Source: Eledone cirrhosa (lineage: Eukaryota). Taken from it: DNA of 64,000 nt. The DNA lies in NCBI GenBank assembly GCA_964016885.1, contig OZ024750.1:2790001-2854000 (forward strand), read 5' to 3'. Position 1 is the first letter of the stretch. Each line of letters opens with the position of its first letter. Below, piece after piece: positions 9,209 to 59,249 of the stretch. The notes below the pieces were generated by a model that did not search any database, was not told where the DNA came from, and saw nothing but the letters and a program-made list of their open reading frames with translations. The position numbers and the translations under genes were made by a program.

Positions 9209-9414
9209 CCCTTTACCATTTACATTACTCTAGATATACTGTTGTATTTTTGTGATAAAGGCTTTAATCTCACATAATATCGAATCTATAAAATTTTGAT
9301 ATTTATTTTGAGAACAATACCTTAACATCAGTATGAGTGGCTAGTTATGGCCTGTTTGAACAAAAAGAGGTGAGAGAATTCTGGCCAGATACGACTGGTT
9401 TAAATGCTAAAGGG
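9209..9414. mobile_element. MITE family A (reverse orientation), nested in a family B remnant
   Basis: ttaa-ccctttaccattta ... taaatgctaaaggg-tta. Confidence 0.8.
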
Positions 9415-9662
9415 TTAGATAAAAATATAATATTATATAAGAATATTTTTAAAGCTATGTACTAAATGTCAGCTTATCAAAAATTCCTACAAATTCTTGA
9501 TTATTTACAAAATTAATTGAAATATGTTAATGAAATAGTTAAATTATCATTATATAATATCTAGGTGTTTTCTATATTTCTTTTGAAGATTTTTATCTAG
9601 AAAATCCCAGTGTGATGTGTAGTTTGAATAAAATAATACAAGTCAACTTTTTTTTTTCTTAA

Positions 9663-11774: not shown

Positions 11775-11822
11775 CACCATGATATTAAATAAATGGAAAC
11801 TATATTTATAAAACCATATTTA

Positions 11823-11883
11823 TTTTATTATATATATTTCAAGGGCAACCAAGACAACATTGGTGCGCTTTCATCAGATAAAA
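11823..11883 (-). ncRNA. Minimal type I hammerhead ribozyme motif (Penelope-like)
   Basis: Minus strand reads TTTTAT-CTGATGA-aagcgcaccaa tgttgtc ttggttgccctt-GAAA-TATATA-TA-ATAAAA. This gives a 6-bp stem I, ~10-bp stem II and palindromic short stem III, inside a ~175-bp island between (TA)n tracts. Confidence 0.7.
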
Positions 11884-19210: not shown

Positions 19211-19604
19211 GTTTATCCCGGGTTCAATCGGGGGTAACCACAGTAAGTAAGGTACTCAATACATAGAGTATATAATGTTTAACCCTTTAGCATTTAAGCC
19301 GGCCATATCCGCCCAAAATGCTTTCACCTCTTTCTGTTCTAACCGGCCTTAACTGGCTGCTCATACTTATGTTAAGGTATTGTTCTAAAAATAAATATCA
19401 AAATCTCATATATTCGATATTATGTGAGATAAAGCCTTTACCACAAAAATACAATAGTATGTATAGAGTACTGTAAATGTTAAAGGGTTAATATAGAAAT
19501 GGCTTCTACAAGACTAGAACTGTTTCCTTCGAAGGAAATCATCAAGGCTTTCCTGATGATTTTCTTCGAATGAAACAGTTCTAGTCCTGTAGAAGCCATT
19601 TCTA
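19211..19604. mobile_element. Fold-back element, family 1, with hammerhead motif (19546-19597, +), interrupted by a MITE
   Basis: Same tail (gggttcaatcgggggtaaccacagtaagtaaggtactcaa). Palindrome 19494-19604; CTGATGA at 19553-59. Confidence 0.75.
19283..19487. mobile_element. TTAA-targeting (piggyBac-like) MITE, family A
   Basis: TIRs CCCTTTAGCATTTA / TAAATGTTAAAGGG with TTAA on both sides. The empty site is visible in the paralog at 57256-57259. Confidence 0.85.
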
Positions 19605-20599
19605 CAAAAAAAAAAATATATATATATATATACAAATATTTGTTGGAGCTTTTTTTTTACATATATTATATTAATGGCTAGAGACTTTAATCAGATCCAC
19701 TCTTTTGACCAGCATTTCTACGACAAAGCAACAGTGACACAGGAAGAGTGGAATATATTTATATCAGTCAGATCAAGTAAGGCAAGACTTATGTGTTCCA
19801 TGCTGTAATGCAACATCAGAAAGATTTCAATTGCTGACTTGTCACACCTGTGTCACACCTGTGTCACACCTGTGTCACACATGTGTCACACATTTTCCTC
19901 TGTGCAGGTTTTTATTTATTTATTTATTTATTTATTTATTCATTCATTTATTTATTTTTATTAAACTACCAACTGTGTATTAATTATTCTTTTACTGGTT
20001 TCCGTTATTCAGTTGTGGCCATGCTGGGGCACTGCTTTCAAGGATTCTAGTTGATCATATCGGTCCCAGTAATTATTTTAATTTTGTCTGTTTTTGTATG
20101 AATGTGTGTGTGTGTGTGTGTGTGAAAGAGAGAGAGATAGTCTGTGTATGTGTGTGTGACTGTGTATATATATGTGTGTGTGTGTGACTGTATATATGTG
20201 TGTGTGACTATATATATATATATGTGTGTGTGTGTGACTATATATATGTGTGAGTGTGTGTGTGAGACTATATATATATGTGTGTGTGTGACTATATATA
20301 TGTGTGAGTGTGTGTGTGTGTGTGTGACTATATATATATGTGTGACTGTGTATATATATGTGTGTGTGTGACTGTATATATATATGTGTGTTTCCACATT
20401 CACATTTCTTCCTATTCTTTCCACCATTAATGGCGGCAGATTAGTTTTTTTCCCAGACAAAACATCTTTTCATTTGAGAGGTTCCAGTTCTTTCTGGAAG
20501 TTATTCCGGGCAACATTGCTTCTCGTTTCGAGAATTAGTCAAAACATGTTTTTCAGTACACTAAGATGTTTTTGTTAAATGTGACACACAAACAGAAAT

Positions 20600-29085: not shown

Positions 29086-29264
29086 ATTGTTTTTACTTTT
29101 GGCACAAGGCCAGCAATTATCCCAGTACATTACTGGTACTTTATTTTATCGACCCCGTAAGGATAAAAGGCAAAGTTAACCTCGGCGGGATCTGAACTCA
29201 GACCATAAAGGGCCGTAACTCAATGCTGCAAAGCATGGCGTCCGACCCTCTACCGATACTGCCA
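29086..29264 (-). mobile_element. tRNA-derived SINE (same family)
   Basis: Full-length homolog, about 60 bp from the exon-64 donor. Confidence 0.8.
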
Positions 29265-29321
29265 CTGTGGTTTTATATGGTACATAATATTAAGAGTTAA
29301 AATTATAAATGATTTACTTAC

Positions 29322-29466: not shown

Positions 29467-29468
<2 letters not shown>

Positions 29469-29655
29469 CGAAGGAAATGTGGTAAGGAACCAGGTGGACC
29501 ATAACGCACCAAAGTACTCAATACTTGAGGTAGTAGAGTGGGTAATAGGAACCAGTAAGACCCCGACAGCTGAGCTCAAGCCGTTTCGACGGCTAATTCA
29601 GTCCAGAATTAGCCGTCGAAACGGCTTGAGCTCAGCTGTCGGGGTCTTACTGGTT

Positions 29656-29660
<5 letters not shown>
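29467..29660 (-). mobile_element. Fold-back element, family 2, opposite orientation, in (TA)n
   Basis: Perfect 55-bp arms (29545-29599 / 29606-29660) with a 6-nt loop. The tail is nearly identical to 58948-59025. Confidence 0.75.
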
Positions 29661-57189: not shown

Positions 57190-57379
57190 GTTTATCCTGG
57201 GTTCAATCGGGGGGTAACCACAGTAAGTAAGGTACTCAAAGCAGAGTATAAACATTTAATATAGAAAAGGCTTCTACAGGACTAGAACTGTTTCATTTGG
57301 GAGAAATCATCAGGGCTTCCTGATGATTTCTCCTGAATGAAACAGTTCTAGTCCTGTAGAAGCTTTTTCTATATTAAAT
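57190..57379. mobile_element. Fold-back element, family 1, with hammerhead motif (57313-57365, +)
   Basis: ~61-bp inverted arms with 3 mismatches. Reads GGGCTTC-CTGATGA-tttctcctgaat-GAAA-CAG...CTG-TA-GAAGCTT. Flanked by (TA)n. Confidence 0.78.
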
Positions 57380-58208: not shown

Positions 58209-58844
58209 AGCTAGGTTTTCTTAAAAAATAATTTGTATATCTCAAATTATATAATTTGTATATCTTATCCAAATTTAGTGTATCATACAGCATTCTGACA
58301 TAATTGAAATTCAGACTTATATTTGCATGTCATTCATGTCAACACTTATACTGTGTAAACCATGAAATATTCTTCTTTCCACAGTAACGAAAAAAACAGA
58401 AAAAGAGAGAACAAAAGGGAACATTCTACCCAACCCACCCCCATCATGAGAAATTCATGTAACTTCCTCCATTTGAGAACAATCACATTCAGTTTTTCAA
58501 AGTCAACTTGATTGAAGAGTTTAAATTCTGGGTGCTGCTACATCAAAACAAGAAACCTTTCCTTTTCCAAATATACCAAAACAACTGAATACATCGCACA
58601 GAATTTCTATTAAACATAAAGGAACAGCTGAAATATTCATAACAGCAGCCATAAGAGAAGAAGAAAAAATAGATTTGATAAAAAAAACAGAACTGAAAAT
58701 AGTGAAAACAGAAAAAGTGTGTAATTGTCAACTTCTACGTAATAAATCTGTGTCTATATGATATTTTATGAGAGAGGGGGAGAGAGAGAGAGAGGGATAT
58801 ATATATACATATATATATATATATACACAAATCTTTATATATAT

Positions 58845-59023
58845 ATAGGAACCAGTAAGACCCCGACGGCTGAGCTCAAGCCGTTTTGACGGCTAATAGC
58901 CGTCGAAACGGCTTGAGCTCAGCCGTCGGGGTCTTACTGGTTCCTATTACCCACTCTACTACCCTAAGTATTGAGTACTTTGGTGCGTCATGGTCCACCT
59001 GGTTCCTTACCACATTTCCTTCG

Positions 59024-59025
<2 letters not shown>
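58845..59025 (+). mobile_element. Fold-back element, family 2 (partial hammerhead), in (TA)n
   Basis: ~51-bp inverted arms (58845-58947, one mismatch) plus a ~78-bp tail. Contains GAAA-CGGC-ttgagctca-GCCG-TC. Confidence 0.75.
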
Positions 59026-59060
<35 letters not shown>

Positions 59061-59061
<1 letters not shown>

Positions 59062-59242
59062 GTTATTCCGGGTTGAATCAGAGGTAACCACAGTAAGTAA
59101 GGTACTCAATACATTGCAGAGTATAAAAGTTTTAATATAGATGAGATTCTACAGGACTAGAACTGTTTCATTCTTTAGAAATCATCAGGAGATTCCTGAT
59201 GATTTCTAAAGAATGAAACAGTTCTAGTCCTGTAGAATCTCA

Positions 59243-59249
<7 letters not shown>
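59061..59249. mobile_element. Fold-back element, family 1 (Penelope-like terminus), in (TA)n
   Basis: Perfect 56-bp inverted arms (59135-59190 / 59194-59249) plus a ~75-bp unpaired tail. Homologous to the copies at 57190 and 19211. Confidence 0.8.
59189..59241 (+). ncRNA. Type I hammerhead ribozyme motif
   Basis: Stem I GAGATTC/GAATCTC, CTGATGA (59196-59202), stem II TTC/GAA, GAAA (59215-18), stem III CAG/CTG, cleavage triplet GTA. Confidence 0.75.

What the first reader, a model, noticed from the sequence alone, without database searches (positions are those of the whole stretch)
58845..59025. Second fold-back family whose symmetry axis is hammerhead stem II (half ribozyme)
Seen: two copies (58845-59025 and 29467-29660, opposite orientation), both in (TA)n. 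The palindrome centre is GACGGCTA...TAGCCGTC, followed directly by GAAA-CGGC-[palindromic TGAGCTCA loop]-GCCG-TC (GUC triplet). There is no CUGANGA box because the 5' side is an inverted copy of the 3' side. The tail shares GTATTGAGTAC with family 1. Inference: cDNA ending in the stem II hairpin snapped back and self-primed, deleting the catalytic 5' half. That would be a mechanistic footprint of how these inversions form.
Basis: partly seen in the sequence, partly recalled or inferred. Interest (0 to 1): 0.75.

Follow-up and report, generated by a model that had tools for sequence, protein, structure and literature searches.

The report
Twin-copied starts of a Penelope RNA
This hairpin is one of tens of thousands of tiny head-to-head insertions of a Penelope-type jumping gene in TA repeats; its two arms were likely copied separately from the same RNA up to the RNA's likely start, which lies inside a predicted ribozyme, so the copies would be a large natural record of how these elements insert.

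Summary
Both copies are real. They belong to a family of about 38,000 inserts in (TA)n. Each is two truncated ends of a Hydra-type Penelope-like element (PLE) joined head to head, one arm with a 77-nt tail and one without. The parent exists (5,326 arms), but its hammerhead core is UUGANAA, not CUGANGA. Junctions cluster in the 3' part of stem II, as predicted: 49 of 59 long and 57 of 58 short arms end in a 14-nt band. Snap-back on stem II is not the cause: its product occurs at most once and either arm can be the longer. The band lies about 29 nt behind a TATA-like box, and arms ending there often carry an extra G, as from a cap. Family 1 shows the same G upstream of its core. Best reading: both cut DNA strands prime on one RNA, run off its capped start and are end-joined. 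No RNA data were available. The inverted-plus-tail layout is known; I did not find the start-site explanation in print. The scan noted it before on other DNA of this genome (e1-10317274).

The parts
58848..58897 (-). Copy 1, short (tail-less) arm: inverted copy of the PLE end, from the short end back to parent position -10 (0 = hammerhead G12)
   Evidence: position read off against read-through copies
58897..59024 (+). Copy 1, long arm: parent position -8 to the long end; overlaps the short arm by 1 nt
58897..58932 (+). 3' half of a predicted type I hammerhead: stem II 3' strand, G12 box, stem III with palindromic loop, GUC at 58925-58927, stem I 3' strand
   Evidence: sequence compared with 50 read-through arms; activity untested
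58948..59024 (+). 77-nt tail between the short end and the long end; holds a small hairpin (58966-58980) whose core 11-mer is shared with family 1; in a tandem copy it runs on into the leader of the ORF
58798..58847 (.). (TA)n-rich target, left flank of copy 1
59025..59060 (.). (TA)n target, right flank of copy 1, shared with the adjacent family 1 insert
   Evidence: 94 of 100 tail ends are followed by TA repeats
29468..29599 (-). Copy 2, long arm with tail, reaching parent position -12
29600..29657 (+). Copy 2, short arm; begins exactly at parent position -18, the predicted RNA start
59061..59244 (.). Adjacent family 1 insert with the same long-arm/short-arm layout; both arms keep the whole hammerhead core; the + arm begins at that family's predicted RNA start (59190)

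Best explanation
The feature is a head-to-head pair of truncated ends of a Penelope-like retrotransposon in a TA repeat, likely made when both strands of a cut TA repeat each prime a separate DNA copy on the same element RNA, both copies run off the RNA's likely capped start, and the two free ends are likely end-joined. Shown: the layout, the parent with an RT plus GIY-YIG ORF, two fixed 3' ends 77 nt apart, one stop band for both arms, and the excess of G before -18. Inferred: the element's promoter sits inside hammerhead stem II (TATA-like box at -47, initiator-like sites at -18 and perhaps -22), so RNA from the upstream repeat lacks the catalytic 5' half, and priming in that repeat gives 60- and 140-nt run-off copies. 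Priming in the downstream repeat of a tandem transcript gives the rarer long arms with the whole ribozyme. The extra G is inferred to be the copied cap; ends inside -18 are inferred to be trimmed during joining.
For: (1) One stop band whatever the start: 49 of 59 long arms and 57 of 58 short arms at risk end between -23 and -10 (0.10-0.14 per nt) against 0.001-0.011 per nt downstream and 1 of 10 long arms in the next 106 nt upstream. Genome-wide, 36,354 arms reach -17 and 5,326 carry the 5' half. (2) Base before -18: T 17,065, C 4,576, G or A 6,310 with 87 G to 13 A in the first 100 rows; 0 of 52 read-through arms have G there; the control before -15 gave 22 G to 78 A. By hand, 14 of 26 G cases and 5 of 30 C cases are not explained by parent or partner arm, which scales to roughly 4 G per C. 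(3) 19 of the 64 inserts in the first 100 rows have the extra G on both arms (hand count). (4) Arms are coupled: the partner of a read-through arm also passes the band in 11 of 13 informative inserts, although only 10 of 59 long and 1 of 58 short arms pass it in the unbiased set; subfamily markers are identical on both arms in 26 of 32 pairs (shuffles: mean 10.6, max 17). (5) Family 1 has a canonical TATA box 30 nt before an A that is preceded by G in 76 of the first 100 non-parental rows (A 12, T 12), 13 of 19 G cases not explained by a partner; that site is upstream of the core, not in stem II. (6) In tandem copy L093 the tail runs on to an ATG 231 nt after -18. (7) In vitro, an anole PLE cuts and extends both strands from two internal RNA sites that bound the tail (PMC11167929); an untemplated 5' G is read as a copied cap in L1 (PMC9341517).
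Against: No RNA start was measured. The stop is a band, not one base: 17,065 arms have the parental T at -19, and only about 13 of 30 examined were read-through, so many arms go 1-4 nt past -18; the test for a second start at -22 was inconclusive (G 16 of 100). In solo arms joined straight to (TA)n, G (36) exceeds A (about 5) but not C (about 44). The -15 control has its own bias from symmetric joints. 12 of 26 G cases could come from the partner arm. The family 2 TATA-like box is degenerate, and the TATA and initiator consensus are recalled. D. virilis Penelope has a TATA-less internal promoter (PMC2377424). Subfamily concordance could also come from subfamilies active at different times. The family 1 band was judged from 60 loci by eye, not mapped. 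All samples are the first rows on one contig.
Confidence: 0.7

Rival explanations
1. Both arms are separately primed, but they end because the RT stalls at the inner hairpin of stem II or at a protein bound there; the extra G is added without template during joining.
For: An inner hairpin covering about -34 to -15 folds in most of the 14 read-through arms; the stop is a band, not a point; C is nearly as common as G before -18 and G is not above C in solo arms.
Against: A chance stall should hit each arm independently, but read-through arms pair with read-through arms in 11 of 13 inserts. Family 1 arms gain G at a site upstream of the core, 30 nt behind a TATA box. Most C cases are the partner's last base (21 of 30).
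Confidence: 0.15
2. One reading: one cDNA ends in the stem II hairpin, snaps back and copies itself, which deletes the catalytic half.
For: Arms share subfamily markers (26 of 32); short templated inserts at some junctions show local re-priming; self-priming was proposed for palindromic PLE junctions (PMC3846280).
Against: The predicted loop-retaining product is absent. The short arm extends further in 39 of 71 inserts; in 9 clear cases (of 14 flagged, 5 set aside as internal deletions or duplications) the long arm ends downstream of +10 while the short arm reaches -10 or beyond. Overlap is 0-1 nt in 24 of 35 direct joints and 36 of 71 joints carry inserts. Both arms can carry their own extra G.
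Confidence: 0.07
3. Long inverted insertions lost their centres after insertion because palindromes are unstable, leaving short stable hairpins.
For: Long head-to-head inserts of 1-5 kb exist; some arms carry internal deletions.
Against: Deletion would not stop at one parent position on arms of different length, leave almost nothing between -24 and -130, or add a non-parental G.
Confidence: 0.05
4. The hairpin is itself a mobile non-autonomous unit copied whole from a few master copies.
For: Very high copy number; some junction sequences recur.
Against: Junctions differ across nearly all of 71 inserts, and arm lengths vary independently.
Confidence: 0.03

Closest known systems
Hydra clade of C-terminal-endonuclease Penelope-like elements, e.g. 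Hydra-1_Obim (Craig et al. 2021, PMC8557442)
   Same: Single RT plus C-terminal GIY-YIG ORF with RW(K/R), DKT, CxCX5C, CxxC and CxH motifs; (TA)n target; hammerhead in the repeat; ORF visibly similar to the Hydra-1_Obim protein in the supplement (by eye).
   Different: A different family: the hammerhead listed for Hydra-1_Obim has a canonical core and short stem II; here the core is U3-A8 and stem II is about 55 nt long. Most copies here are under 200 nt.
Inverted pseudo-LTR plus optional tail of endonuclease-positive PLEs (Pen2a_Av, D. virilis Penelope; PMC3846280, PMC8557442)
   Same: Head-to-head inverted 5'-truncated copy; tail on one end only; palindrome at the junction.
   Different: Tail is 77 nt rather than 30-40 nt. 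In the passages read, the junction is put down to self-priming on an antisense template; here it maps to a predicted RNA start on both arms.
Poseidon_Ac in vitro mechanism (Frangieh et al. 2024, PMC11167929)
   Same: Two internal RT start sites bounding the tail; both target strands cut and extended; hammerhead cleavage not needed for insertion.
   Different: Other clade; in the parts read it does not treat how the two products end or join, or the inverted junction.
U3-A8 minimal hammerheads of S. mansoni Cercyon PLEs (Cervera and De la Pena 2014, PMC4209133)
   Same: U3-A8 core variant, type I, palindromic loop III, dual motifs on opposite strands 100-700 bp apart.
   Different: Stem III here has 5 bp and stem II is long and overlaps the predicted promoter; most copies keep only the 3' half.
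L1 twin priming and retroviral minus-strand strong-stop DNA (recalled; cap G per PMC9341517)
   Same: Two primers on one RNA; run-off at a capped 5' end with an extra G.
   Different: L1 twin priming inverts non-overlapping parts; here both copies cover the same stretch from fixed sites, and the run-off product is integrated instead of being transferred.

Membership tests
Penelope-like element, endonuclease-positive | Single ORF with RT followed by a GIY-YIG endonuclease | tested here: met
   695- and 710-aa open frames in L241 and L248 with RT and GIY-YIG-type motifs read by eye; Pfam and PDB gave no match
Penelope-like element, endonuclease-positive | Pseudo-LTR in tandem: 3' repeat identical to the sequence before the ORF | tested here: met
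   In L093 the repeat and tail run on into the leader and ATG; seen in one tandem copy
Penelope-like element, endonuclease-positive | Inverted 5'-truncated copy with an optional tail at one end | tested here: met
   71 of 100 tail-anchored copies have an inverted partner within 330 nt, a lower bound
Hydra clade | RWK-like, DKT, CxCX5C, CxxC and CxH motifs | tested here: met
   All read in L241 against the definition in PMC8557442 section 11; RWK appears as RWR
Hydra clade | Insertion into (TA)n | tested here: met
   94 of 100 tail ends
Hydra clade | Canonical hammerhead core | tested here: not met
   Core is the U3-A8 variant or C3-A8; a known variant in other PLEs (PMC4209133)
Hydra clade | Placement in the clade by RT phylogeny; absence of the CCHH motif | not tested
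   Reference sequences were seen in the supplement only and were not aligned
Type I hammerhead ribozyme (parent) | Core boxes, stems I-III and NUH site in type I order | tested here: met
   50 read-through arms parse this way
Type I hammerhead ribozyme (parent) | Three-way fold favoured and backed by covariation | tested here: inconclusive
   Stem I forms in most of 14 arms, but the hammerhead fold is not the minimum-energy fold in most; no clear compensatory changes
Type I hammerhead ribozyme (parent) | Self-cleavage | not testable with these tools
   Needs an in vitro assay
Type I hammerhead ribozyme (window copies) | 5' core box and stem I 5' strand | tested here: not met
   Absent from both copies
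Non-LTR retrozyme | Tandem head-to-tail units each with a complete type I hammerhead | tested here: not met
   Head-to-head pairs with half a ribozyme; definition from 10.64898/2026.07.22.740005

The most novel reading that the evidence does not exclude
The enigmatic inverted repeats of Penelope-like elements are twin run-off products: both target strands prime on one RNA at the two tail boundaries, copy to the cap and are joined. In this family the promoter is nested in hammerhead stem II, so the transcript's 5' repeat cannot self-cleave while its 3' repeat can. Junctions of tens of thousands of copies would then map PLE transcription starts from DNA alone.
Probability: 0.62. Interest if true: 0.72.

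Novelty: new variant of a known kind. Interest (0 to 1): 0.52.

Why it matters
How PLEs form their tandem and inverted structures is named as open in PMC8557442 and PMC11167929. This family gives about 38,000 natural events with a sharp, testable signature: two fixed priming sites, one stop band, an extra G and coupled arms. If the reading holds it replaces self-priming on an antisense template as the source of the palindromic junction, explains why the tail sits on one arm, and suggests how an element keeps a self-cutting motif at its 3' end without cutting its own 5' end.

Tried and rejected
Canonical-core parent within 30 nt of stem III: 39 hits; the 30 read by eye were junction accidents or decayed inverted arms, and the gap allowed was too short for the real stem II, so one search repeated the test at the true position (11 canonical of 59). 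Stem II snap-back product: 1 hit, not a snap-back. Second start at -22: inconclusive. Solo-arm G test: not above C. The first junction caller over-extended and was replaced; still misses some short or diverged partners and reads five internal deletions or duplications as long inserts. Pfam, PDB and Rfam gave nothing useful. Sequencing runs: no RNA holder listed; the four contig sets laid cannot show starts. Supplement search for the tail motif found it at the 3' end of one other Hydra record only (3 hits in all); one search gave nothing. One pairing script matched too few loci because of a pattern error and was replaced. Exact edges of side features in the window were not determined.

Full report
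Observation. Both copies are present as described: 58848-59024 and 29468-29657, opposite in orientation and set in (TA)n. Copy 1 is a 50-bp hairpin followed by a 77-nt unpaired tail. The window lies in a 3.0-Gb animal genome; earlier scan notes call it an octopus, which I did not test. The family is very large: 57,811 exact hits of a stem III motif and 38,273 tail ends, with 0 hits for reversed controls.

What it is. Longer copies lead to the parent. Loci L091, L092, L241 and L248 hold an ORF of up to 710 open codons with RT and C-terminal GIY-YIG-type motifs. It carries the motifs that define the Hydra clade of Penelope-like elements, which insert in (TA)n (PMC8557442, section 11 read), and resembles Hydra-1_Obim by eye (supplement passages). 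Pfam and PDB gave no match, and no tree was built. Each short insert is two 5'-truncated ends of this element joined head to head. One arm begins at a short end and the other at a long end 77 nt further on. In a tandem copy the long end runs on to the ORF's ATG, so the repeat is also the element's leader. The inverted copy and the one-sided tail are known PLE traits (PMC8557442 passages; PMC3846280 passages).

The ribozyme. 5,326 arms keep the 5' half. They parse as a type I hammerhead with a 5-bp stem I, a long stem II and a core of UUGANAA (34 of 50) or CUGANAA (15 of 50), 1 other; this sample is biased by the search pattern. Canonical cores at that position are rare (11 of 59 G8 hits). The U3-A8 variant is known from schistosome PLEs (PMC4209133, parts 1-2 of 4 read). 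Folding support is modest and activity is untested.

Where the arms stop. I took the first 100 tail ends on the largest contig, chosen without regard to the centre, and called junctions against 14 natural read-through arms. With G12 as 0, 49 of 59 long arms and 57 of 58 short arms that reach -10 end by -23; the rate per base is 0.10-0.14 there and 0.001-0.011 downstream; of the 10 long arms that pass, 9 run beyond -130. Genome-wide counts agree: 36,354 arms reach -17 and 5,326 match the 5' half, the second an undercount because the pattern misses some subfamilies.

Snap-back does not explain it. A cDNA folding on stem II would keep the loop; that product gave 1 hit, which holds an ORF fragment instead. 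The short arm reaches further in 39 inserts, the long arm in 25, 7 are equal. Neither arm can be a copy of the other when the short arm lacks the tail and the long arm lacks most of the hairpin (9 clear cases of 14 flagged). Of 71 joints, 36 carry inserts and 24 of the other 35 overlap by 0-1 nt, as expected of end joining.

Why the band is probably the RNA start. In the parent a TATA-like box begins at -47 and initiator-like sites put A at -18 and -22 (sequence; consensus recalled). The commonest arm ends are -17 and -18. The base before -18 is T in 17,065 arms (parental), C in 4,576 and G or A in 6,310, with 87 G to 13 A in the first 100 rows. No read-through arm has G there (0 of 52). Before -15 the ratio is 22 G to 78 A (Fisher p 3e-21, but that control has its own bias). 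After removing cases that the partner arm or parent explains, 14 of 26 G and 5 of 30 C remain (hand counts). Of 64 inserts in which both arms reach -18, 19 have the G on both arms (hand count). An untemplated 5' G is read as a copied cap in L1 (PMC9341517 passages). Family 1 is an independent test: its parent has a canonical TATA box 30 nt before an A just upstream of the core, and the non-parental base before that A is G in 76 of the first 100 rows, including four solo arms joined straight to host repeats. There both arms keep the whole core, which fits a start upstream of it; family 2 keeps half because its start lies in stem II. Arms are also coupled: a read-through arm has a read-through partner in 11 of 13 informative inserts among 30 rows, and 44 of the first 100 core hits sit in head-to-head pairs within about 5 kb (hand count). 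A chance stall would act on each arm alone. Subfamily markers match across arms in 26 of 32 readable pairs.

Results against. No RNA evidence could be obtained. Many arms go a few bases past -18 and a second start at -22 was not shown. In solo arms G is not above C. D. virilis Penelope uses a TATA-less promoter (PMC2377424 passages). Samples come from the start of one contig, and several counts are by hand.

Mechanism. Inferred steps: the protein binds the leader, perhaps at the tail hairpin shared by both families; it cuts both strands of (TA)n; each 3' end primes at one tail boundary; both cDNAs run to the cap; host end joining fuses them, often trimming up to about 10 nt (copy 1 stops at -10 and -8; copy 2's short arm starts exactly at -18). 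Cutting and extension of both strands from two internal sites is shown in vitro for another PLE (PMC11167929, parts 1-2 of 4 read). Whether one RNA or two sister RNAs in a dimer serve as template is not resolved.

Novelty. The element is a new family of a known clade and the layout is known. Seven searches of the held library did not turn up a paper that ties PLE inverted junctions to a capped start or to twin priming; most subscription papers are not in that library, and supplements other than that of PMC8557442 were not seen. The retrozyme preprint (10.64898/2026.07.22.740005, part 1 of 5 read) concerns tandem units, which this is not. An earlier unreviewed note of this scan reached a near-identical reading on other DNA of this genome (e1-10317274); I had formed mine before reading it and do not count it as support. 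Verdict: real, a new variant of a known kind, interest 0.52.

Noticed in passing
window 59061-59244, about 57190-57375, about 19220-19605: Three family 1 inserts; stem I changes together across the three copies, supporting a real type I hammerhead with a GUA site. 27,663 motif hits genome-wide.
   Followed up: partly
window about 19275-19490 and 9264-9417: A roughly 200-nt insert with short terminal inverted repeats splits one family 1 copy; a second, 86% similar copy lies at 9264. Its ends look like a piggyBac-type MITE (recalled pattern). Edges not determined.
   Followed up: no
window 58966-58980, 59102-59112; PMC8557442 supplement: The tail hairpin core shared by families 1 and 2 also appears near the 3' end of the Hydra record listed just before Hydra-1_Obim: a candidate conserved protein-binding site.
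   Followed up: partly
window 12682 to about 17000: Tandem array with a 39-nt unit, about 110 copies.
   Followed up: no
window 11807-11877 (- strand): A third hammerhead-like motif beside a TA repeat; similar sequence flanks several fetched loci, probably another PLE family.
   Followed up: no
window about 29100-29270; L098: A dispersed repeat that resembles cephalopod tRNA-derived SINEs (recalled), also seen in L098.
   Followed up: no
window 59024/59061; L002, L081, L096: Inserts of the same or different families often sit side by side in one (TA)n run.
   Followed up: no
L100: The two arms differ at several linked subfamily sites, hinting at two templates or later conversion in a minority of inserts.
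   Followed up: no
L341: A fragment of the element's own ORF is captured between the two arms.
   Followed up: no
read-through arms: 15 of 50 arms have a mismatched C3-A8 core, probably inactive, in a subfamily that still spread widely; fits the report that cleavage is not needed for insertion.
   Followed up: no
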